The notes under the pieces: generated by a model
The model's database searches: none
What the model saw: the letters and a program-made list of their open reading frames with translations, nothing else
Told to the model about the DNA's origin: nothing
Position numbers and translations under genes: made by a program
Origin: the human T2T-CHM13v2.0 reference genome, Homo sapiens
DNA length: 64,000 bases
NCBI RefSeq assembly: GCF_009914755.1
Contig: NC_060933.1
Direction: 5' to 3' (one strand)
Shown: positions 4,460 to 64,000 of the stretch, one piece after another
Position numbering within the stretch: position 1 is the stretch's first letter
Layout: each line of letters begins with the position of its first letter

Positions 4460-4758
<299 letters not shown>

Positions 4759-4894
4759 ATTGAGAGCAAATAATGAGCAATAAAAGAGATTATCAAGGGA
4801 CGTTTAATTGCATATGATTTTTCCACACTGCAAGATGGAACTTTAGAAATTAAACCCAGCTTAAGGTACAAATGCCTTGAAAAGTTTTGCTCAC

Positions 4895-4967
4895 CAAAGA
4901 CCATGTAGTCAGGGGCCAGTGGTCAGGTCCTTCTTCTTGATGCCATCTTATATAAGTAAGTAGAGAC
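4895..4967 (-). other. ZNF883: candidate 73-nt 5' UTR exon of the leftward gene
   Basis: minus strand: long polypyrimidine tract ...CTGCTTTCTCAG|GTCTC and donor TTTG|GTGAGC; gene name inferred from position. Confidence 0.45.
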
Positions 4968-5739
4968 CTGAGAAAGCAGAGCTGAAAAAGGAAAGGGGCC
5001 CTGAGAAATCAGGACTGTCTTTATGAGAAGCCTGTCTGACTACCTGGATATAACCCACACCCTCTGTAAAAATGTCAGAATGAATCTAGGAACAGATTCT
5101 TTCCCTGCAGAGTACAAAGTGAAAGGCCACTTACATTCCTCTCTCTGGTCACTGGTCCAATCTGACAAACCAGAAACAGGGCTAACTTTATCCTCCCATG
5201 ATGGGTGGCACCGAGTGCACCAGCTCCCTCTTTGTTTGTTAACAATACTTGTAAAGCATATACAATTTTTCGAAGTGCATTCACAAATGCCATCTCAAAG
5301 AACAAACAATTGCTCTTCGTCGCCCGCAGAGTGTAGGGAATCAATTCCACAGTTCTTTATAGAAGAGACTTCAGAAATTTACCAGTAAAACGAAACAAGC
5401 TATCTCTAGAGAGGAGGTGAGTTTCTGAGGAAAGAGCAAGAACTGGATGTCGGGAAACCTAAATTCTAGTTGGCACTAAATACGTATATCACGGTTTTCT
5501 TGCAATTCCCAGGTCTACCTACCACCAAGGTCTGGGGTGGTTGCCCCTCCCCAGATAAACTGCCCCCCATCACAGTCAAAGCAAGGCCCAAAAGCTCTGA
5601 GCTCTGTTCTCATGACTCTCCAACCCAGAAGAGAACCCAAGCCCCTGACTGTTAAGGCTGGGATGAGCAGACACGGCTTTGCCTCCTCCTCACCCTGAAG
5701 CGGGATGCTGGCCCAGGTCACCACCACCCCTCCACTGCA

Positions 5740-6090: not shown

Positions 6091-7774
6091 TGTTTACATG
6101 AAAAGAAGAAAAAAGGAAAAGATTTTTTCTTTTGCTATAAACAACTGTAAATCCAAAGAGATGCAAAGTTTGCGTTAACAACACCCCAGACACAAAAGTA
6201 ATACCTATTCACTACATTAATAGATGATTTATAAATAACTCTTTATTCAACAGATAAAAAACCAAACTACCCAGATGGATTCATTGCAGAAATATTTATT
6301 AACGCAGTGATTAATATTTTTTAGCATTCTAAAAGTAAATCTCTGATTTATAGCTAGCTTCTTTGTTATGAGTGTGTGTTGAGGGGACGGTGGCGGGGGG
6401 GCGGGGCGGGCAGAGACAGGGGGCAGAGAGAGAGACAGCGAGCAAGCACCAGAGAGATTCCATCCAAGAATGAGGTCATACTTTTGGGGTAGATTTTTTT
6501 CTAGCTTTTTTCTTCCTGTTAGGAACTTAGGTTATGATCCCTTCAGTGCTACCAAAAATAGTATACTGATGAACATCCTTGTAGAGTAATCTGTTCACTC
6601 CTCCACATCTGTTCTTGACAAAAACGTCCGAAAAACGAATATAATGAAGAGGGAATATGTATATCTAACTTTTTTCTTAAACAAACGAATATAGATAGAT
6701 AGACAGATTGTAGATAACAGAGAATAGAGGTAAGGAAAAAGAACAAAATTAGTCAGATAAAAGTTCACTCCAAGATACTCCCTATTATATATTTAAATAT
6801 GTAATTTCTATGCATATATATACAAATTCTGTATAATTAGATATTCTCAAGTATAAAACTATACATACTTTAAAAAATTGCTTTATTGAGCTATGATTGA
6901 TATAACTGTACACAGTTAATATACACAACTTGATGTGTTTGGAGGTAAGTATATATACCTGTGAAACCATTAAGCCATCATGCCATCAATCCCATAAATT
7001 CATCTATCACTTCCAAAAGTTTCCACCCCTTTGGGCTTCCCCCACCTTTTGTGGTAAGAACACTTAATGTGAGATCTACCCTCTTTACTTATTTTTAAGT
7101 ATATAATACACTATTGTGAATCATAGGCTCTTTATGGTAAGAAGACATCCAGATCTTATTTATTGTGTATAAATAAATACTGAAACTTTGTACTCTTTGA
7201 CCAAAACCTGCCTATTTCTCCCTCACCAGCCCCTTCACCATTTTACTTTCTGTTTCTATGTATTTCCCTATTTTTGATTCCACATATAAGTGAGATCATG
7301 CAATATTTGTCTTTCTGTGCCTAACTTCTTTCACTTAGCATAATATCCTCCAGTTTCATCCATGGTGTCATAAATGACAGGATTTCATTGTTAATAAGGC
7401 TGAATAATATTCCATTATATGTATATACCACATTTTCTTTACTTGTCCACCAATAGATATTTAGGTTGTTTCCATATCTTGGCTACTGTGAATACTGCTG
7501 CAATAAACGTGGAAGTGCAGATATCTCTTTGAGATCCAGATTTCCATTCCTCCGGATATATACCCAAAAGTGAGATTGCTGGATCAAAGGGTAATTCTAT
7601 ATTTAGAGGTACATTTATATTGATTTCCATAGTGGCTGGACCAATTTACATTCCTACTAATAGTACACAGGGTTTGTTTCCTCTACATCATCTGTTATGT
7701 ATTTATTTTTATAATAGCTATTTTAACAGAAGTATGGTGATAACTCATTGTGGTTTTGATTTGCATTTCCCTGA

Positions 7775-8919: not shown

Positions 8920-9777
8920 TGCTATGCTTTGAATCTTTGTCCTCTTCAAAACTCATGTTGAAATTTAATTGCCATTGTGACAGTATTGACAGGTGGGACT
9001 TTAAAGAGGTGGTTAGGTTGTGAGAGCTGTGCCCTCATGAATGGACTAATGCCTTTATCTATCAAGAAAGTGCGTTTGCCACGTATGTTTATTGCGGCAC
9101 TATTCACAATAGCAAAGACTTGGAACCAACCCAAATGTCCATCAATGATAGACTGGATTAAGAAAATGTGGCACATATACACCATGGAATACTATGCAGC
9201 CATAAAAAATGATGAGTTCCTGTCCTTTGTAGGGACATGGATGAAGCTGGAAACCATCATTCTCAGCAAACTATCTCAAGGACAAAAAACCAAACACCGC
9301 ATGTTCTCACTCATAGGTGGGAATCGAACAATGAGAATACTTGGACACAGGAAGGGGAACATCACACACTGGGGCCTGTCATGGGGTGGGGCGGGGAGGG
9401 ATAGCATTAGGAGATATACCTAATGTAAATGACGAGTTAATGGGTGCAGCACACCAACATGGCACATGTATACATATGTAACAAATCTGTACGTTGTGCA
9501 CATGTATCCTAGAACTGAAAGTATAATAAAATGAAATAGCCTAACTATACTTTTAAAAAAAAAAAGTGCATTTGCCTCCCCTTTGCTCTTCTCTCTTTGC
9601 CCTTCTGTCATGTGATGCCTTCCATCATGTAATGATATAGCAAAAAGGGCCTATCTAGATGCTGAAACTTGGATATTGGACTTTCCATTTTCCAGAACTG
9701 TGAGACAACAAATATCTGTTCATTATAAATGACCAAGTCTATCATATTCTGTTATAGCAGCACCAAATAGACTGACA
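8920..9777. mobile_element. MaLR (MST-like) solo LTR
   Basis: TGCTATGCTTTGAAT...AAACTCATGTTGAAATTTAAT...TTATAGCAGCACCAAATAGACTGACA. Confidence 0.75.
9079..9563 (+). mobile_element. 5'-truncated L1PA 3' end inserted in the MaLR LTR
   Basis: near-consensus L1PA ORF2 end and 3' UTR; flanking near-identical AAAGTGC(G/A)TTTGCC target duplication. Confidence 0.9.
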
Positions 9778-12054: not shown

Positions 12055-12546
12055 TTGTTCTATCATAAAGACACATGCATGCGTATGTTCATTTCAGCGC
12101 TATAATAGCAAAAGACATGGAATCAACCTAAGTGCCCATCAACAGTAGACTGGATAAAGAAAATGTGGTACATATATGCCATGAAATACTATGCAGCCAT
12201 GAAAAAGAATGAGGTCATGTCCTTTGCAGGAACACTGATGGAGCTGGAGGCTATCATCCTTAGCAAACTAATGCAGAAACAAAAAAAACAAACATTGCAT
12301 GTTCTCACCTTTAAGTGGAAACTAAATAATCAGAACACATGAACACATAGAGGGAAACAACGCATATTGGGGCCTACTGCAGAGTGGAGGGTGGGAGGAG
12401 GGAGAGGATCAAGAAAAATAACTTATGGATACTAGGCTTAATATCTGGGTGATGAAATGATCTGTACAACAAACCTTGATGACATGAGTTTACCTATATA
12501 ACAAGCCTGCACATGTACCCCTGAACTTAAAATAAAAGTTAAAAAA
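12055..12546 (+). mobile_element. L1PB-like 3' end
   Basis: AAGACATGGAATCAACCTAAGTGCCC...CCCCTGAACTTAAAATAAAAGTTAAAAAA. Confidence 0.85.
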
Positions 12547-51780: not shown

Positions 51781-52179
51781 CTAACCATGATATACACAGA
51801 CTTCCAGGTTACAGAATCTGTGAGATAATAGGTTTGTGATACTTTAATCCACTAAAGCTGGTGATAATTTGTTATCCAGCAATACTAAACTAAGGACTCA
51901 GTGAAGACTGAAAAATAATTGATGGCTTGAAATTACTCTTCACCTACTTAAGACACGGCCCCCTACACTGTGTTCCTGACAGAGTATTCTTTGAGCATCA
52001 CCTTTGTACGGATAGGCAATTGCTTTGTTTCTGCCTCAGATATGGTCCTGACTTTAATTGTTCCTGATATTAGAGTCGTAAAAAGGTACAATATTTTTTT
52101 CAATACCTCTCCTTTCCTTTCTTCCTCACAAATCAGAAAGAGGGGCAGTTCAGTTTCTCAAGGATTTTCTTGAAACCAA

Positions 52180-52361
52180 CATATATATACATAATATATA
52201 CATATATATACATATACACATATATACACATGTATACATATATACACATATATACATATATACATATATACACATATATACATATATACACATATATACA
52301 CACATATATATACATATATACACACATATATATATACATATATATACACATATATATATAT
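52180..52361. repeat. (TA)n/(TACA)n simple repeat at the macrosatellite boundary
   Basis: direct reading. Confidence 0.95.
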
Positions 52362-53001
52362 GTGGTAGGGATGAGTTAGTACGGAGGATCAGAACATAAT
52401 GTTGTACTGTTGAGTATATTCATTCGAGTAGACCTGAAAATTCTCCCGACAGGGACAGGGGAAGCAAGTGCGGCGATAACTGTGTGAATTCGGCTGATTC
52501 TAGTGAATTCCCTAATGAAGAGGTCACACACGGTAAATATGTATGGTATTTATTGTCATTCATACTTGAAGGCACCGGGAGGGGAAGAAAATATTAATCA
52601 GGCAAAAAAACGTAAAAGAGACATTACTTCTATGAGACTCTAGCATTCGTAGGAACACTCTCTGGTTCACAAGGATTGACCGAACACCTCGATATGTGGC
52701 TCTCCATCTGAGGCTTGCTCCAAATGGCCCTCCACTATTCCAGGCACGTGGGTGTCTCCCCTAACTCTCCCTGCTCTCCTGAGCCCATGCTGCCTATCAC
52801 CAATCAGTGCAGGTCCTTTCTGAAGAGCTCGGGTGCATTCTCTCCATCCCACCTCTTTTCCCAAGAAAGAAGCCACCTGTTCCAAGACACGAAGTGGGAC
52901 ATTCCCCTTCCACCTCCTTCTCCAAAGTTCCCCAGGTGATCATCACAGGGTAGGGAGACAAGTTCCCAGATTTCAGTTACAAGACATAGGACGCTGGCAT
53001 G

Positions 53002-53044
<43 letters not shown>

Positions 53045-53843
53045 CGAAGAGGTAGCCACAAGGGTCATTAAACACATGACGACTGATTTCCAAAAACGTG
53101 GATGCAGTTCATCCTTGCCAAAGCCGAGGGTGCAAACGCGGAATGGCGGAGAGATTCCAGAGGCTCACCAAAACCTGCCAGGAATATTTTCCTGACCCTG
53201 GGGGCAGAGGTTGGAAATATTGAGGACATTTCTTGGGACACACGAAGAAGCTGAGGGACCAGGCATTTTCCTTTCCACTACGAATGACCTACACCGAGGG
53301 CATTTCACTTTCCCCTGGAAATCCCCTATGGTGAGGTACCGCCCCAAGCCCCCACCCCCACTTCCGCGAATCCACGTGGCTCAGTCTCTACACGGGTGTC
53401 ACTCCAGGTAGGCTTCTCAACGCTCTCGGCTCAAAGGACAATCCCACATCCAAACGCAAAGCCCACACCTCATCCCTTCCCAGAAAACGCGCAAAAATTC
53501 AATGGGAGAGAGGTCCCGAGTCATCAAAGTCCCAGATGTGGTGAGCCCCCGGAAGGAAAAACCGTGTCGTCCTTAGGATGTCCGGAACAAGAGCTAGGCT
53601 TCCGGAGCTAGGCAGCCATCTATCTCCGTGAGCCAGCGGGAGGGAGACCGCCGGGAGGCGAAGTGGGGCGGGGCCATCCTTCTTTCTGCTCTGCTGCTGC
53701 CGGGGAGCTCCTGGCTGGCGTCCAAGCGGCAGGAGGCCGCCGTCCTGCAGGGCGCCGTAGAGTTTGCGGTGCAGAGTCGGGATCGCCTCTGGGGCAGAGG
53801 GTTCGAGCTTTTCCAAGGCGAGGGTGCTGGCTCCCGTGCGCAC

Positions 53844-54889
53844 CTAAGGCCCCCCAGGAGCGGGCGCAAAGGGCGGCGGGCCCGCGGGCCAGGGCCCCGC
53901 AGCCAGCAGGCTGTCGAGCGTGGCCAGCGCCCAGTGCAGGGCGGCCCCGGCGTGCGCCACCTGCCAGGTGAGCCAGGCGCGCTGCGAGGCGCTGGGCTGC
54001 GTGCCGCCGGCGGGCCCCGGGAGGAAGGCGCCCCCCGGGGCCCGAAGCTCGCCCAGGGCCACGTCCAGCCCGCCCAGGTGGTTGACGACTCGCGAGAGTG
54101 GGCACGGGAGGGAGACCCAGGCTTCTGGGGAGTGGCGTCGGCGGCGCTTTGGGGAGGTGGGTCGCTCCTCCCGGACGTCAACGCGGCGTTGCGGGCCGCT
54201 CGTCCTCCCTGGCGATCTAGGCCGGTGCTTTGGCTCCTCCAGGAGCCTCGGGCTGGGAACAGATCCTGCGCGGGAGACAGAGCGGGAGGTGTCAGAGGGA
54301 CTGCGCGCAGCGCTAGGGGACCCATTTCCAAGGTCCCGAAGCCGCTCCCGACCCCGCCTCCCCCTGCCCTCCATCCCCCACCCCTCCGCGGCTCGCCTCC
54401 GCGCCCCATCCTCTCGGCCCCTCCCTGCATCCTGGGGACTCCGGTGCCCCGTCCGGGGTGCCCTCCCCTCCGCCCGTTCAAACTTGAAGCACATCTCATC
54501 TGGGGCCACCGGGGGCCCGGGTTCCTGGCGCACTGAGGGCTTCCTCGGCCCCCTCGGGGCCCCCCACTCCCCGCTCCCCTTCCCAGGGCCCTGCGCCCTC
54601 CTCCCCACCCCTCCAAGCTCCCAGCCCCTAAACCTGCCTCCTCTGCGCTCGTGGGGGCGTCGTGCTCTGCCGGACTCGGGCTTGTCGTGGCCTCGCTCTC
54701 CGGCTGGGGCTGGTCGTGGCTTGACCTTCCGCCCTCGGTTTCCGGTTTCTCTGCCGGGACTGCGAGGGGAGCCGTCGGGGCTTCTCCACCGTTTGTGCCT
54801 GGACGCAGAGGCCTCCCGGCTGTGCCCGCTGGAAGCTGCGGGGGAAGAGGAGGTCGACAGTGAGTGGGCCATGACCCGTCCGTAGACGG
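53844..54889 (-). CDS. putative macrosatellite gene copy 1, coding exon 2 (362 aa with exon 1)
   Basis: acceptor CCCTCCCGCAG|CC phase 1; open to TAG at 53844; helical hydrophobic C-terminus; prediction only. Confidence 0.45.
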
Positions 54890-55302
54890 CTGCGGGAGGG
54901 TTGCAAGGGCCAAGCTCCCAGAGTGACTTCAAGGCAGGAATGGCTCTGCTCCCAGGTGTCCCCCACCCCCTCCTCTTTCTCCAGCTGCCCAAGACCTCCA
55001 GGCCCCACTCCCCTGGTCCCTTCCTGTCTCCTGACTCTGGCTGTTCCCCAGCTGCCTGGCACCCTCCAGCAAACCCTCCTCCGCGGGCGCACCCAGAGGA
55101 TGGCCCAGCTGGCGGAGCCACCCAGCACACAAAAAGTCTGCCTTTCTTTGACCTTAGGTTTCCCCACCACCTGCCGGATCAGGGCCCGTGGGGCGGGGGC
55201 CGCTGCCTTTGTCACCCCAGCTCTAACTCTCCTGCCTCCCTGGCCCCTGCCACCCCCTCCACACACCAATCCGCACAGACGAGACACTCGACCCTCACTC
55301 AC

Positions 55303-55345
55303 CTCGTCCTCTCTCAGAGCCCTCCCGGTTCTTGCTGGTCTCCAT
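55303..55345 (-). CDS. putative macrosatellite gene copy 1, coding exon 1 (METSKNREGSERGR)
   Basis: Kozak GAAGATGG; consensus donor GAG|GTGAGT, phase 1. Confidence 0.45.
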
Positions 55346-55499
55346 CTTCCCCTGCTTTCCACAGGGAGGTCTGTCTTCTCCCGTCTCCTCAAAGGACAGC
55401 TTCCCCATCCAGGAAAGAGCTCTGTGTTCCCGGCGAGGAGGCTCTAACCTCTGGCAGCCTGAGCAGCGCAAGCCGGGCAATGGCCGGTTGGGCGCAGCC

Positions 55500-55600
55500 G
55501 GCGGGTTTTGATAGGGAGCCAGGACCCCCTGCTGGGAGTTCCCAGGAGGATTGGCTGCGGACACGCCCACAGGGGCAGGCTACCTTGATTAGGTTAGGCG
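55500..55600 (-). promoter_or_regulatory. putative monomer promoter, copy 1: DUX4 motif, KLF/SP box, CCAAT, TATA-like
   Basis: minus strand: TAACCTAATCA 55586-55596, GTGGGCGTG 55562-55570, CCAAT 55550-55554, CTATCAAAA 55506-55514. Confidence 0.6.
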
Positions 55601-56639
55601 GGTTGGAGGGGTTCCGCTTTCTCCCTGGGTCCCTGCCGCTCTGTCTCCCGCAAGTGATGAGCAATTTTGCGGAGTGGCAGAACAGAGACAAAGGTAGCTG
55701 TGGGCTTCACGGTAATTTCAAAGGAAGTGCCCTACTTCGTTGCCCATTTCGAAGTCCTCTCTACCTCTGCGTTGGACGATTTCTCCACTTCCTGGTGTGC
55801 ACCTGCGTGTGTGCGTGCCTGTGTGTATGTGTGTGTGTGTGTGTGTGCGCGCCCGCGTGCTTGGGTGTGTGCACACCATGCCGAGAGTCGGGCAAATTTC
55901 GAGTGAAGGGAGACCGAGTCCCGCAGGTTCTCTTGCTCCTGCAGTCTGCGGAGGAAAAACTCCTTTCTGGCACGGCGGCAGGAATCCATCTACCGACGTT
56001 AGGAAAGGACAGGGTGTGCTTTCGTCCCAGCTTAGTTTTCTATGGAGAAACAGGCAGCAGAGGAGAGTGGGCCAGAGGGCCACATTTTGCCCACGACCAG
56101 CCAGGTTTGAGTTGGTTCCTCCTAGGCCTCACGGTCTGATTTTCTCCTCCCCTTTGTGTACCCGACGGGTGTTGCTCTGAGATCAGGACCATCCCGGCGG
56201 GCTGCGGATGGGATCATCGTGTGTGTATGGCCACAGCCCTCCGCCTCGCTCGCTCGGTGAGCACGTGAATCAAGGAAGGGGCACAGGACTCTAGGCAGGA
56301 CCCGGCGGGGTGTCGGGAGGAGAAACTCGGTAAGAGAAGAGAGGGAGAGGGAGACGTGCGAGGCGCAGGCTGTCCCAGGCGAGTCTGAGAAACGGCGTGC
56401 GCGGAGACGTCCGCCAGAATGCAAGCAGGCGAAAGGAAATGGAACATCCGCAGGGCCGGTGCCGTGGGATCCGATCACGCCCTGACGGCTTTCGGGGACA
56501 TCTCAGGCTCGCTGTCTCCCCCTTGGACCTGGCGCAGAGAGGAGTGAGGCCTGAGGACAGGGCTCCGTGGCCAGCTAGGTGTGGGAGGTGCCAACACAGT
56601 GAGGGCTGGTCAAGGGGTGGCCGGGAGCGATACGGGGGG

Positions 56640-57345
56640 GTTGCTCAAGAAATCACCGCTGGAACTGGGATTCCAGTCCAGTGGGATACGTCCAGTCATC
56701 CCACTTCTGGACGTATCGCCTAAGGACACGAAATCGGGATGTGGTGCAAATATGTGTCCTGCTGCGTTGGTTGTCGGCACGCTGCCTGTAACCAAGACGT
56801 GGAATCGACCTAAGTGCCCATCAGCAGATGACTAGAGAAGGACAAAGGAGTGGGGTTCGCAGAAGAAACACATCAGGGAAAGGAAAGGAGAGCCGGTCAT
56901 CTGGGACGTCATGCACGGACCCAAAAGTCATGGTGCCCAGTGAAATCAGCCAGGCCCATCCGACCCGTATTGCGTGATCTCCTTGGGATGTGGGATGGAA
57001 AGCGGTGAGGATCGCGAAAGTAGAGAGGAGAAAGGTGGTTGGCCGGGCCTGGGGCCGGGGTAGGGGCAGGGAAAAGATGCCAATGCGAGATGTGGGTCAA
57101 AGGGCAGAAAGTTTCCGAGAGGCAGGTGGAGTGCTTCCTGGATATCCGTGGCAGGGCAACGTGAGTACGGTGGAGCAGAATGTAAGGTTCTCGTGAATAT
57201 ACCCACGGGAGTAGAGCTGAAAATTCTCCCAACAGGGACAGGGGACGCATGTGGGGCGATAAGTGTGTGAATTCGGCCGATTCTAGTGAATTCCCTAATG
57301 AAGACGTCACACACGGTAAGTGTGTATCATATTTATTGTCATTCA
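56640..57345 (+). mobile_element. GC-shifted old L1 3' end within the monomer (also ~62085-62770, partial at 52362-52560)
   Basis: ATCCCACTTCTGG...CAAGACGTGGAATCGACCTAAGTGCCCATCA...AGTGAAATCAGCCAGGC; ORF 56581 ends TKTWNRPKCPS, like L1 ORF2. Confidence 0.75.
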
Positions 57346-57826: not shown

Positions 57827-58270
57827 CTCGAAGAGGTAGCCACAAGGGTCATTAAACACTTGACGACTGTTTTCCAAAAACGTGGATGCAGTTCATCCAC
57901 GCCAAAGCCAAGGGTGCAAAGCAAACACGGAATGGTGGAGAGATTCCAGAGGCTCACCAAACCCTCTCAGGAATATTTTCCTGACCCTGGGGGCAGAGGT
58001 TGGAAACATTGAGGACATTTCTTGGGACACACGGAGAAGCTGACCGACCAGGCATTTTCCTTTCCACTGCAAATGACCTATGGCGGGGGCATTTCACTTT
58101 CTCCTGCAAATCACCTATGGCGAGGTACCTCCCCAAGCCCCCACCCCCACTTCCGCGAATCGGCATGGCTCGGCCTCTATCCGGGTGTCACTCCAGGTAG
58201 GCTTCTCAACGCTCTCGGCTCAAAGAAGGACAATCACAGGTCCAAGCCCAAAGCCCACACCTCTTCCTTT

Positions 58271-58918
58271 TGTTATACCCACAGAAGTTAGAGAAAACGC
58301 CACACTTTGAGACAAATTAAGAGTCCTTTATTTAAGCCGGCGGCCAAAGAGATGGCTAACGCTCAAAATTCTCTGGGCCCCGAGGAAGGGGCTTGACTAA
58401 CTTCTATACCTTGGTTTAGGAAGGGGAGGGGAACTCAAATGCGGTAATTCTACAGAAGTAAAAACATGCAGGAATCAAAAGAAGCAAATGGTTATAGAGA
58501 GATAAACAGTTTTAAAAGGCAAATGGTTACAAAAGGCAACGGTACCAGGTGCGGGGCTCTAAATCCTTCATGACACTTAGATATAGGTGCTATGCTGGAC
58601 ACGAACTCAAGGCTTTATGTTGTTATCTCTTCGAGAAAAATCCTGGGAACTTCATGCACTGTTTGTGCCAGTATCTTATCAGTTGATTGGGCTCCCTTGA
58701 AATGCTGAGTATCTGCTTACACAGGTCAACTCCTTGCGGAAGGGGGTTGGGTAAGGAGCCCTTCGTGTCTCGTAAATTAAGGGGTCGATTGGAGTTTGTC
58801 CAGCATTCCCAGCTACAGAGAGCCTTATTTACATGAGAAGCAAGGCTAGGTGATTAAAGAGACCGACAGGGAAGATTCAAAGTAGCGACTTAGAGTAAAA
58901 ACAAGGTTAGGCATTTCA
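58271..58918 (-). mobile_element. 648-bp ERV1-class solo LTR within the monomer (LTR6/HERV-S71-like, tentative)
   Basis: TG...CA termini; CTTT 4-bp target duplication (58267-58270, 58919-58922); minus-strand AATAAA at 58327-58332; absent from the edge unit. Confidence 0.85.
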
Positions 58919-59287
58919 CTTTCCCAGAGAACGCGCAAACATTCAATGGGAGAGAGGTCCCGAGTCGTCAAAGTCCCAGATGTGGCGAGCCCCCGGGAGG
59001 AAAAACCGTGTCTTCCTTAGGATGCCCGGAACAAGAGCTAGGCTTCCGGAGCTAGGCAGCCATCTATGTCCGTGAGCCGGCGGGAGGGAGACCGCCGGGA
59101 GGCGAAGTGGGGCGGGGCCATCCTTCTTTCTGCTCTGCTGCTGCCGGGGAGCTCCTGGCTGGCGTCCAAGCGGCAGGAGGCCGCCGTCCTGCAGGGCGCC
59201 GTAGAGTTTGCGGTGCAGAGTCGGGATCGCCTCTGGGGCAGAGGGTTCGAGCTTTTCCAAGGCGAGGGTGCTGGCTCCCGTGCGCAC

Positions 59288-60333
59288 CTAAGGCCCCCCA
59301 GGAGCGGGCGCAAAGGGCGGCGGGCCCGCGGGCCAGGGCCCCGCAGCCAGCAGGCTGTCGAGCGTGGCCAGCGCCCAGTGCAGGGCGGCCCCGGCGTGCG
59401 CCAGCTGCCAGGTGAGCCAGGCGCGCTGCGAGGCGCTGGGCTGCGTGCCGCCGGCGGGCCCCGGGAGGAAGGCGCCCCCCGGGGCCCGAAGCTCGCCCAG
59501 GGCCACGTCCAGCCCGCCCAGGTGGTTGACGACTCGCGAGAGCGGGCACGGGAGGGAGACCCAGGCTTCTGGGGAGTGGCGTCGGCGGCGCTTTGGGGAG
59601 GTGGGTCGCTCCTCCCGGACGTCAACGCGGCGTTGCGGGCCGCTCGTCCTCCCTGGCGATCTAGGCCGGTGCTTTGGCTCCTCCAGGCGCCTCGGGCTGG
59701 GAACAGAACCTGCGCGGGAGACAGAGCGGGAGGTGTCAGAGGGACTGCGCGCAGCGCTAGGGGACCCATTTCCAAGGTCCCGAAGCCGCTCCCGACCCCG
59801 CCTCCCCCTGCCCTCCATCCCCCACCCCTCCGCGGCTCGCCTCCGCGCCCCATCCTCTCGGCCCCTCCCTGCATCCTGGGGACTCCGGTGCCCCGTCCGG
59901 GGTGCCCTCCCCTCCGCCCGTTCAAACTTGAAGCACATCTCATCTGGGGCCACCGGGGGCCCGGGTTCCTGGCGCACTGAGGGCTTCCTCGGCCCCCTCG
60001 GGGCCCCCCACTCCCCGCTCCCCTTCCCGGGGCCCTGCGCCCTCCTCCCCACCCCTCCAAGCTCCCAGCCCCTAAACCTGCCTCCTCTGCGCTCGTGGGG
60101 GCGTCGTGCTCTGCCGGACTCGGGCTTGTCGTGGCCTCGCTCTCCGGCTGGGGCTGGTCGTGGCTTGACCTTCCGCCCTCGGTTTCCGGTTTCTCTGCCG
60201 GGACTGCGAGGGGAGCCGTCGGGGCTTCTCCACCGTTTGTGCCTGGACGCAGAGGCCTCCCGGCTGTGCCCGCTGGAAGCTGCGGGGGAAGAGGAGGTCG
60301 ACAGTGAGTGGGCCATGACCCGTCCGTAGACGG
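59288..60333 (-). CDS. putative macrosatellite gene copy 2, coding exon 2
   Basis: same structure as copy 1 at +5444; ORF intact. Confidence 0.45.
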
Positions 60334-61044: not shown

Positions 61045-63209
61045 GGTTGGAGGGGTTCCGCTTTCTCCCTGGGTCCCTGCCGCTCTGTCTCCGGCAAGTG
61101 ATGAGCAATTTTGCGGAGTGGCAGAACAGAGACAAAGGTAGCTGTGGGCTTCACGGTAATTTCAAAGGAAGTGCCCTACTTCGTTGCCCATTTCGAAGTC
61201 CTCTCTACCTCTGCGTTGGACGATTTCTCCACTTCCTGGTGTGCACCTGCGTGTGTGCGTGCCTGTGTGTGTGTGTGTGTGTGCGCGCGCGCGCGCGCGC
61301 GTGCTGGGGTGTGTGCACACTATGCCGAGAGTCGGGCAAATTTCGAGTGAAGGGAGACCGAGTCCCGCAGGTTCTCTTGCTCCTGCAGTCTGCGGAGGAA
61401 AAACTCCTTTCTGGCACGGCGGCAGGAATCCATCTACCGACGTTAGGAAAGGACAGGGTGTGCTTTCGTCCCAGCTTAGTTTTCTATGGAGAAACAGGCA
61501 GCAGAGGAGAGTGGGCCAGAGGGCCACATTTTGCCCACGACCAGCCAGGTTTGAGTTGGTTCCTCCTAGGCCTCACGGTCTGATTTTCTCCTCCCCTTTG
61601 TGTACCCGACGGGTGTTGCTCTGAGCTCAGGACCATCCCGGCGGGCTGCGGATGGGATCATCGTGTGTGTATGGCCACAGCCCTCCGCCTCGCTCGCTCG
61701 GTGAGCACGTGAATCAAGGAAGGGGCACACGACTCTAGGCAGGACCCGGCGGGGTGTGGGGAGGAGAAACTCGGTAAGAGAAGAGAGGGAGAGGGAGACG
61801 TGCGAGGCGCAGGCTGTCCCAGGCGAGTCTTAGAAACCGCGTGCGCGGAGACGTCCGCCAGAAAGCAAGCAGGCGAAAGGAAATGGAACATCCGCAGGGC
61901 CGGTGCCGTGGGATCCGGTCACGCCCTGACGGCTTTCGGGGACATCTCAGGCTCGCTGTCTCCGCCTTGGACCTGGCGCAGAGAGGAGTGAGGCCTGAGG
62001 ACAGGGCTGCGTGGCCAGCTGGGTGTGGGAGGTGCCAACACAGTAAGGGCTGGTCAAGGGGTGGCCGGGAGCGATACGGGGGGGTTGCTCAAGAAATCAC
62101 CGCTGGAACTGGGATCAAGTCATCCCACTTCTGGACGTATCGCCTAAGGACACGAAATCGGGATGTGGTGCAAATATGTGTCCTGCTGCGTTGGTTGTCG
62201 GCACGCTACCTGTAACCAAGACGTGGAATCGACCTAAGTGCCCATCAGCAGATGACTAGAGAAGGACAAAGGAGTGGGGTTCGCAGAAGAAACACATCAG
62301 GGAAAGGAAAGGAGAGCCGGTCATCTGGGACGTCATGCACGGACCCAAAAGTCATGGTGCCCAGTGAAATCAGCCAGGCCCATCCGACCCGTATTGCGTG
62401 ATCTCCTTGGGATGTGGGATGGAAAGCGGTGAGGATCGCGAAAGTAGAGAGGAGAAAGGTGGTTGGCCGGGCCTGGGGCCGGGGTAGGGGCAGGGAAAAG
62501 ATGCCCATGCGAGATGTGGGTCAAAGGGCACAAAGTTTCCGAGAGGCAGGTGGAGTGCTTCCTGGATATCCGTGGCAGGGCAACGTGAGTACGGTGGAGC
62601 AGAATGTAAGGTTCTCGTGAATATACCCACGGGAGTAGAGCTGAAAATTCTCCCGACAGGGACAGGGGACGCATGTGGGGCGATAAGTGTGTGAATTCGG
62701 CCGATTCTAGTGAATTCCCTAATGAAGACGTCACACACGGTAAGTGTGTATCATATTTATTGTCATTCATACTTGAAGGCACCGGCGGGGGAAGGAAATA
62801 ATTAAATCGCAAGACAAAACCTCCAAGAGAGATCACCTCGAAGAGAGTCTAACGTCCGTAGGAACGCTCTCGGGTTCACAAGGATTGACCGAACCCCAGG
62901 ATACGTCGCTCTCCATCTGAGGCTTGCTCCAAATGGCCCTCCACTATTCCAGGCACGTGGGTGTCTCCCCTAACTCTCCCTGCTCTCCTGAGCCCATGCT
63001 GCCTATCACCCATCGGTGCAGGTCCTTTCTGAAGAGCTCGGGTGGATTCTCTCCATCCCACTTCCTTTCCCAAGAAAGAAGCCACCGTTCCAAGACACCC
63101 AATGGGACATTCCCCTTCCACCTCCTTCTCCAAAGTTGCCCAGGTGTTCATCACAGGTTAGGGAGAGAAGCCCCCAGGTTTCAGTTACAAGGCATAGGAC
63201 GCTGGCATG

Positions 63210-63254
<45 letters not shown>

Positions 63255-63698
63255 CTCGAAGAGGTAGCCACAAGGGTCATTAAACACTTGACGACTGTTT
63301 TCCAAAAACGTGGATGCAGTTCATCCACGCCAAAGCCAAGGGTGCAAAGCAAACACGGAATGGTGGAGAGATTCCAGAGGCTCACCAAACCCTCTCAGGA
63401 ATATTTTCCTGACCCTGGGGGCAGAGGTTGGAAACATTGAGGACATTTCTTGGGACACACGGAGAAGCTGACCGACCAGGCATTTTCCTTTCCACTGCAA
63501 ATGACCTATGGCGGGGGCATTTCACTTTCCCCTGCAAATCACCTATGGCGAGGTACCTCCCCAAGCCCCCACCCCCACTTCCGCGAATCGGCATGGCTCG
63601 GCCTCTATCCGGGTGTCACTCCAGGTAGGCTTCTCAACGCTCTCGGCTCAAAGAAGGACAATCACAGGTCCAAGCCCAAAGCCCACACCTCTTCCTTT

Positions 63699-64000
63699 TG
63701 TTATACCCACAGAAGTTAGAGAAAACGCCACACTTTGAGACAAATTAAGAGTCCTTTATTTAAGCCGGCGGCCAAAGAGATGGCTAACGCTCAAAATTCT
63801 CTGGGCCCCGAGGAAGGGGCTTGACTAACTTCTATACCTTGGTTTAGGAAGGGGAGGGGAACTCAAATGCGGTAATTCTACAGAAGTAAAAACATGCAGG
63901 AATCAAAAGAAGCAAATGGTTATAGAGAGATAAACAGTTTTAAAAGGCAAATGGTTACAAAAGGCAACGGTACCAGGTGCGGGGCTCTAAATCCTTCATG
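63699..64000 (-). mobile_element. next copy of the monomer solo LTR (cut by window edge)
   Basis: matches 58271 onward at +5428. Confidence 0.85.

What the first reader, a model, noticed from the sequence alone, without database searches (positions are those of the whole stretch)
53455..53500. Edge monomer preserves the pre-insertion empty site of the array's LTR
Seen: the edge unit reads CCCACACCTCATCCCTTCCCAGAAAACG. The next unit reads CCCACACCTCTTC-CTTT-[TG...648 bp...CA]-CTTT-CCCAGAGAACG (58271-58918), and the LTR starts again at 63699. This explains most of the short 4786-bp first period. Inference: the array predates the ERV; one integration was reduced to a solo LTR and spread through the units by concerted evolution, sparing the boundary. 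That gives a datable marker for array turnover.
Basis: partly seen in the sequence, partly recalled or inferred. Interest (0 to 1): 0.7.

Follow-up and report, generated by a model that had tools for sequence, protein, structure and literature searches.

The report
Frozen repeat edge predates viral insertion
In a known human tandem repeat on chromosome 9, ten of eleven units carry the same remnant of an ape retrovirus while the edge unit has an empty site, likely because the edge stopped exchanging DNA before the remnant spread, which gives an inferred date of roughly 20-30 million years for the repeat's turnover.

Summary
The locus is the known ZAV/MSat10 macrosatellite (9q32): 11 units plus 187 bp in this genome. 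All 10 inner units carry one 648-bp minus-strand solo LTR at the same junction with a CTTT duplication. The proximal unit has one target copy and no leftover bases. The LTR is HERV-T1: coordinates match a published catalogue, sister copies have 4-bp duplications, and proviruses have a likely Thr primer site. That catalogue lists LTRs at the matching position in gorilla, orangutan and gibbon (two copies 5,364 bp apart) and no T1 LTR in macaque or baboon, bracketing insertion at about 20-30 Myr (split dates recalled). Only the first ~1.25 kb of the edge unit is frozen (10% diverged); the rest is 99% homogenised. An AT-rich ~65%-identical relic on the distal flank shows the duplication is several times older. 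The LTR inside the array evolves about twice as fast as sister copies, biased toward GC, so its sequence clock overestimates age. This is a new example of a known kind (RNU2, LTR6A-marked arrays). Other primates' edge units could not be read here.

The parts
52380..53474 (+). Frozen proximal segment of edge unit 1 of the ZAV/MSat10 array; 10.0% diverged from inner units (109/1091 sites, K2P 0.107) and more AT-rich
53475..53478 (+). Single copy of the 4-bp integration target (CCTT; inner units CTTT): the empty site
53479..53636 (+). Transition zone: 8 private differences in 157 sites; maximum-likelihood change point 53636 (support 53582-53658), about 160 bp right of the site
53637..57165 (+). 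Homogenised remainder of unit 1 (about 1% from unit 6), with the CpG islands and the L1 3' fragment
   Evidence: L1MA7 label from PMC2588610
57166..62589 (+). Unit 2, first LTR-bearing monomer (5424 bp)
58267..58270 (+). Left target-site duplication CTTT
58271..58918 (-). 648-bp solo LTR, HERV-T1 clade; TG..CA termini; its only AATAAA is on the minus strand
58919..58922 (+). Right target-site duplication CTTT
62590..64000 (+). Start of unit 3. The array continues past the window to chr9:125,289,688, with a ~630-bp frozen distal edge (5-6% diverged, no LTR site) and, beyond it, an AT-rich relic of the unit at chr9:125,289,701-125,291,190
63699..64000 (-). Same solo LTR in unit 3 (continues past the window end)

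Best explanation
The edge unit of the ZAV macrosatellite has an empty site where all ten inner units carry one HERV-T1 solo LTR, most likely because a single ape-lineage integration in an inner unit spread by unequal crossover or gene conversion while the first ~1.25 kb of the edge unit stayed out of exchange. Shown here: the empty site, the identical filled junctions, the LTR family, the step from 10% to 1% divergence about 160 bp right of the site, the older distal relic, and the faster GC-biased change inside the array. Inferred steps: (1) an array or duplication already existed; (2) a HERV-T1 provirus integrated in minus orientation about 20-30 Myr ago, after the monkey split and before the gibbon split; (3) LTR-LTR recombination left a solo LTR; (4) unequal exchange carried it to every inner unit; (5) an exchange can bring the LTR into unit 1 only through the 1.1 kb between the array end and the site, where homology is short and now 10% diverged, so that segment kept the pre-insertion state and drifted toward AT while inner units gained GC by biased conversion.
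For: Exact 652-bp gap with one target copy left. 1 empty and 10 filled sites genome-wide; identical junctions. 15 of 20 sister copies have 4-bp duplications. HERV-T1: chr14 solo-LTR-to-provirus spacing is 13,371 bp here and in the catalogue; chrY provirus LTR divergence is 0.049 here and 0.0496 there. Gibbon LTR pair 5,364 bp apart, minus strand, 14.64 Mb from an anchor LTR that lies 14.39-14.44 Mb from ZAV here; orangutan 14.83 Mb, gorilla 15.44 Mb. Macaque 0 LTR rows of 5 T1 rows, baboon 0 of 3. Divergence continues on both sides of the empty site. Edge-versus-inner K2P 0.107 +/- 0.01 matches ZAV LTR versus its seven closest sister copies, 0.089-0.105. Distal relic E = 1e-36 to 1e-41. Polarised AT-to-GC versus GC-to-AT changes: inner 18:2, edge 6:11, Fisher p = 0.0013.
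Against: Precise excision through the 4-bp duplication would give the same letters. No non-human sequence could be read: the primate evidence is coordinates in old draft assemblies, and orthology rests on distance to one anchor. The orangutan rows are 8.6 and 4.8 kb apart, not 5.4 kb, and one is labelled T2. The catalogue has no chr9 T1 row for human (HuRef) or chimpanzee, so it misses the array there and absence in monkeys could partly be assembly collapse. The relic does not reach the insertion site (local score 17 versus shuffled 12-17). Polarised total change counts are equal on edge and inner lineages (25 versus 25, 25 unpolarised), so acceleration is shown for the LTR but not for this segment. 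One human haplotype only.
Confidence: 0.85

Rival explanations
1. The edge unit once had the LTR and lost it precisely, by microhomology deletion across the 4-bp duplication.
For: The product would be identical in length and letters to what is seen.
Against: Four bases is a very short microhomology and precise retroelement loss is rare (recalled; the source paper was not held). The edge segment is as diverged from inner units as the LTR is from its sister copies, which leaves almost no time in which it could have shared the LTR.
Confidence: 0.05
2. The present array was re-founded at the time of insertion: an unequal exchange between an LTR-bearing allele and an empty allele made the first modern two-unit duplication, which then amplified. 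The LTR would be as old as the modern array, not younger.
For: Edge-versus-inner divergence equals the LTR's age within error. The macaque Nanostring signal for MSat10 is low, 0.27 of the human mean, with the identity-filter columns NA.
Against: The distal relic (JC 0.30-0.52, 3-5 times deeper) spans the unit junction and shows earlier tandem duplication. Inner units differ from it mostly by AT-to-GC changes (e.g. 87:13), implying long exchange among copies. The low macaque signal may be probe mismatch.
Confidence: 0.08
3. The empty edge junction is an assembly error or a haplotype mosaic of this one genome.
For: Macrosatellite edges are hard to assemble; only one haplotype was examined.
Against: The segment has 109 private substitutions and a distinct composition and joins unique flank. 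The hg18 probe table lists 5 inner-type hits, while hg18 holds 5.9 units, consistent with a diverged first unit there too.
Confidence: 0.02

Closest known systems
ZAV / MSat10 macrosatellite, 9q32 (PMC3018141, PMC4063668, PMC2588610)
   Same: This is that array: next to ZFP37, 5.3-5.5-kb units, 60% GC, two CpG islands, 'an LTR' and LINE homology per unit, 3-31 copies per allele (passages).
   Different: The passages read do not name the LTR family, note the LTR-free edge, the distal relic or a date.
HERV-T1 LTR (PMC5388530)
   Same: Same length class (~640-650 bp); family copies map onto the catalogue's T1 rows; gorilla, orangutan and gibbon rows fall at the ZAV-matching position.
   Different: The catalogue lists the copies as LTR rows dated by divergence; the passages read do not mention the tandem array. 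The array copies are accelerated, so such ages (19-25 Myr for orangutan and gibbon) are not clock-like.
RNU2 array solo LTR (PMC3795722 passage; original 1995/1999 papers not held, details recalled)
   Same: One retroviral insertion, reduced to a solo LTR, present in every unit of a concertedly evolving primate macrosatellite.
   Different: In RNU2 the LTR is suspected of a role in origin or maintenance and the junctions fall within it (recalled). At ZAV neither junction is in the LTR, and an empty site survives.
LTR6A insertion in MSTA/MaLR 'LTR arrays' on chr13/18/21 (PMC2588610)
   Same: A HERV-T-family LTR inserted in one monomer is used to order the events of array evolution.
   Different: There the LTR marks 1 of 6 monomers per higher-order repeat; here it swept all inner units and only the edge stayed empty.

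Membership tests
ZAV/MSat10 macrosatellite | 5.3-5.5-kb, ~60% GC tandem units starting ~2 kb from ZFP37 at 9q32 | tested here: met
   Periods 5424-5446, GC 0.598, start 52380 versus ZFP37 exon 1 end 50482 (description)
Solo LTR from retroviral integration | TG..CA termini, short target-site duplication, no internal sequence, dispersed family with proviruses | tested here: met
   a sister provirus carries Gag_MA, RT, RNase H and integrase domains
HERV-T1 LTR clade | Sister copies coincide with catalogued HERV-T1 loci | tested here: met
   chr14 spacing 13,371 bp in both and provirus 10,482 versus 10,477 bp; chrY LTR divergence 0.049 versus 0.0496
HERV-T1 LTR clade | tRNA-Thr primer-binding site in proviruses | tested here: inconclusive
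   The chr14 site is nearest tRNA-Thr(TGT); the chrY site matches a tRNA-Gln(CTG) gene end exactly and Thr with two transitions
HERV-T1 LTR clade | 4-bp target-site duplication | tested here: met
   ZAV CTTT; 15 of 20 other copies; 4 bp stated for a HERV-T provirus in PMC5388530
HERV-T1 LTR clade | Dfam/RepeatMasker family name | not testable with these tools
   No repeat library on hand; LTR6A/LTR6B are T3/T2, and T1 was described as new in PMC5388530
Pre-insertion empty site | One target copy, no residue, continuous flanks | tested here: met
Pre-insertion empty site | Empty orthologous site in an outgroup | not testable with these tools
   No primate genomes held; the distal relic stops short of the site
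RNU2-type array with LTR at the junctions | Array-flank junctions fall inside the LTR (recalled) | tested here: not met
   Array ends lie ~1.1 kb before the site (52380) and at unit phase 187
GC-biased gene conversion signature | Excess AT-to-GC fixation and faster change in recombining copies | tested here: met
   Inner 18:2 versus edge 6:11 (p = 0.0013). ZAV-unique 34-43 versus partner-unique 12-23 in 14 of 14 triplets, 11 of 14 at p < 0.05; the triplets are not independent

The most novel reading that the evidence does not exclude
The LTR itself froze the edge. Its 652-bp heterology blocked exchange within about 160 bp (near the recalled minimum homology for mammalian recombination) and cut off the first 1.1 kb at the moment of insertion. 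ZAV would then hold three dated layers of one sequence side by side (relic at ~36% GC, ~20-30-Myr edge at ~48%, modern units at ~52% over the same stretch), showing biased conversion turning ordinary AT-rich L1-containing DNA into the CpG-rich, methylation-variable array that represses ZFP37.
Probability: 0.3. Interest if true: 0.6.

Novelty: new member of a known kind. Interest (0 to 1): 0.38.

Why it matters
It supplies a fixed time point inside a human macrosatellite whose copy number tracks methylation and ZFP37 expression (PMC4063668). One insertion reached every inner unit in human, and probably at least two units in gibbon, so turnover rate and GC-biased conversion can be measured against an in-place control. 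It also warns that LTR ages from divergence are inflated about two-fold inside concertedly evolving arrays. The principle (frozen edges, a transposon sweeping an array) is known, so the gain is a clean dated example, not a new system.

Tried and rejected
Retrogene in the unit: 4 of 8 long ORFs were scanned against Pfam with 0 hits. A 140-aa part of the 342-aa ORF matched only the 11 array units. The protein atlas gave no usable hit. No support for a coding unit. Paralogues elsewhere: none at first-look sensitivity; the whole-unit search returned only CA/GT microsatellite matches on chr1 and was uninformative. Empty site in the distal relic: not found. Proximal relic: only L1-like hits at 7181-7589, 9079-9407 and 12108-12167. 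Change point exactly at the empty site: worse by 6.7 log-likelihood units than at 53636. The step at the site itself (109/1095 versus 8/157) is not significant, p = 0.056. The distal edge has a ~630-bp frozen zone with no LTR, so frozen edges do not need an LTR. LTR10 identity (first guess, recalled) was dropped after the HERV-T1 match. Macaque copy number from Nanostring was judged unreliable. Literature searches listed no paper on the ZAV empty edge or its HERV-T1 LTR. Four papers were not held, and supplements of the T2T repeat preprint (0 'ZAV' hits in its main text) were not seen and may annotate the unit. Earlier scan findings were not available.

Full report
Observation. The described letters are at the stated places. 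Unit 1 aligns to unit 2 with one 652-bp gap, the 648-bp element plus one 4-bp target copy. The surviving copy is CCTT against CTTT in filled units. The first period, 4786, plus 652 gives 5438, within the other ten periods of 5424-5446. A 501-bp junction query against the whole genome gave 21 matches from 21 candidates: one uninterrupted and ten split pairs, all in this array. With 80 kb of adjacent sequence, the array runs from window 52380 to window-equivalent 111688, 11 units plus 187 bp. 10 of 10 inner units have identical left and right junctions, and their LTR copies differ by 0-1 base.

The array. Position and make-up identify ZAV (PMC3018141, passages), also called MSat10 (PMC4063668, passages and supplement rows) and listed with an L1MA7 label in PMC2588610 (passages). 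The first paper notes 'an LTR' per unit without naming it. The second reports that copy number correlates with methylation and inversely with ZFP37 expression.

The element. A genome search gave 402 candidates, of which 40 were scored; the best copies outside the array are 85-91% identical. Of the 20 outside copies fetched, 15 have an exact 4-bp duplication, 2 have one mismatch, 2 are proviral 5' LTRs and 1 is interrupted. A sister provirus on chrY carries Gag matrix, RT, RNase H and integrase domains. The primer sites point to tRNA-Thr, though the chrY one also fits a tRNA-Gln gene end. The family matches the HERV-T1 sheet of PMC5388530 (passages; the T1 sheet read in full; searched rows). 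A chr14 solo LTR and provirus start 13,371 bp apart both here and there, and the chrY provirus LTRs differ by 0.049 here and 0.0496 there. The ZAV copy is on the minus strand.

Date. That sheet lists minus-strand T1 LTRs on gorilla chr9 (95.55 Mb, a fragment), orangutan chr9 (109.54 and 109.55 Mb, plus a fragment labelled T2) and a gibbon scaffold (two copies 5,364 bp apart, one ZAV period). To test orthology I located a 526-bp minus-strand HERV-T LTR at chr9:139,673,972, which is 14.39-14.44 Mb from ZAV. The catalogue's T3 row lies 14.64 Mb from the gibbon pair, 14.83 Mb from the orangutan rows and 15.44 Mb from the gorilla row. Macaque has 5 T1 rows and baboon 3, none an LTR. The insertion is thus bracketed between the monkey and gibbon splits, about 20-30 Myr (split times recalled). 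Against this: the assemblies are old drafts; human and chimpanzee have no chr9 T1 row although human clearly has the LTR; orangutan spacings (8.6 and 4.8 kb) do not fit the period; and no non-human sequence was read.

What is frozen. Unit 1 differs from unit 6 at 109 of 1091 sites left of the empty site, 10 of 200 just right of it and 33 of 3471 beyond. The best single change point is 53636 (support 53582-53658), 6.7 log-likelihood units better than the site itself. The distal edge has its own frozen zone of ~630 bp at 5-6% with no LTR in it. The edge-left K2P distance, 0.107 +/- 0.01, equals the distance from the ZAV LTR to its seven closest sister copies, 0.089-0.105, so the edge stopped exchanging about when the LTR arrived. 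That fits a barrier effect of the LTR, or re-founding of the array at insertion, or coincidence; one haplotype cannot separate them.

Older history. Beyond the distal end lies a 1.5-kb collinear relic (chr9:125,289,701-125,291,190) covering unit phases 4488-5427 and 15-598 (nhmmer E 1e-36 to 1e-41). Its p-distance is 0.25-0.38 and its GC 0.28-0.44, against 0.47-0.65 in the unit. Two parts outside the main L1 match had no other hit in the flanks, and a 296-bp part matched only itself genome-wide, so it is a duplicate and not a separate transposon copy. It is 3-5 times deeper than the edge split, which independently shows duplication before the LTR. It does not reach the insertion site.

GC bias and speed. 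Edge and inner units differ as edge-AT/inner-GC 51 times against 22 (p = 0.0009). Polarised on the relic, inner changes are 18 AT-to-GC against 2, and edge changes 6 against 11 (p = 0.0013). The relic is distant and AT-rich, 25 sites could not be polarised, and totals are equal (25 and 25). The ZAV LTR has the longest tip in a 21-copy tree (0.065, median 0.033; the interrupted copy L034 left out) and the highest GC. In 14 of 14 triplets it has more unique changes than its partner (34-43 against 12-23; 11 of 14 at p < 0.05, not independent), mostly toward GC. Catalogue divergences for the longer orangutan and gibbon copies are also high (0.082-0.110). GC-biased gene conversion is the inferred cause. 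A sequence clock on this LTR would overdate it.

Mechanism. One HERV-T1 integration in an inner unit, reduction to a solo LTR (order relative to spreading unknown), spread by unequal exchange, and protection of the terminal segment because exchange needs homology on both sides. Precise excision from the edge gives the same letters but is unlikely with 4 bp of microhomology (recalled) and with the edge as old as the LTR.

Comparison and novelty. The RNU2 array has an LTR in each unit (PMC3795722 and PMC5687341, passages; the original papers were not held, and its solo-LTR history is recalled). PMC2588610 uses an LTR6A insertion to order events in another array. Passages of PMC4041453 and PMC3218863 showed no empty-edge case. 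Searches listed nothing on the ZAV empty edge, its HERV-T1 identity or the relic; most subscription papers and preprint supplements were out of reach. Verdict: real, correctly read, a new and well-dated example of a known kind. Interest 0.38.

Noticed in passing
L005:9701-10000 and L006:1-1190 (chr9:125,289,701-125,291,190): AT-rich relic of the ZAV unit, 62-75% identical, spanning the unit junction; differences are mostly relic-AT versus unit-GC (e.g. 87:13), and CpG counts are 1-5 versus 7-33 per block.
   Followed up: yes
window 58271-58918: The array's LTR has about twice the tip length of sister copies and the highest GC of 21 copies.
   Followed up: yes
window 59288-60316 (-) and the same place in other units: A 342-aa ATG frame in the large CpG island; a 140-aa part is free of stops in all 11 units. 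No Pfam, paralogue or atlas hit; possibly a by-product of 70% GC.
   Followed up: partly
units 1-11 (window 52380 to equivalent 111499): Inner-unit variants come in blocks (units 8-10 share several; units 1, 3 and 11 share others; a 20-bp duplication is in units 1, 3, 8 and 10), a patchwork of recent conversion or unequal crossover.
   Followed up: no
orangutan chr9:109,540,572-109,554,134 (PMC5388530 supplement): Three LTR rows spaced 8.6 and 4.8 kb, not one period; assembly gaps or a different unit structure.
   Followed up: no
window 52179-52361: A 180-bp (TA/CA)-type microsatellite sits directly at the proximal array boundary.
   Followed up: no
L036/L045/L047 (chrY 7,486,903-7,497,063) and L022/L046 (chr14 100,468,535-100,479,016): Two-LTR HERV-T1 proviruses, already catalogued; used here only for family assignment.
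   Followed up: partly
MSat10 row, PMC4063668 supplement file 10: Signal relative to human: gorilla 2.7 and 3.4, chimpanzee 4.7, bonobo 3.7, gibbon 0.70, macaque 0.27; identity-filter columns are NA.
   Followed up: partly
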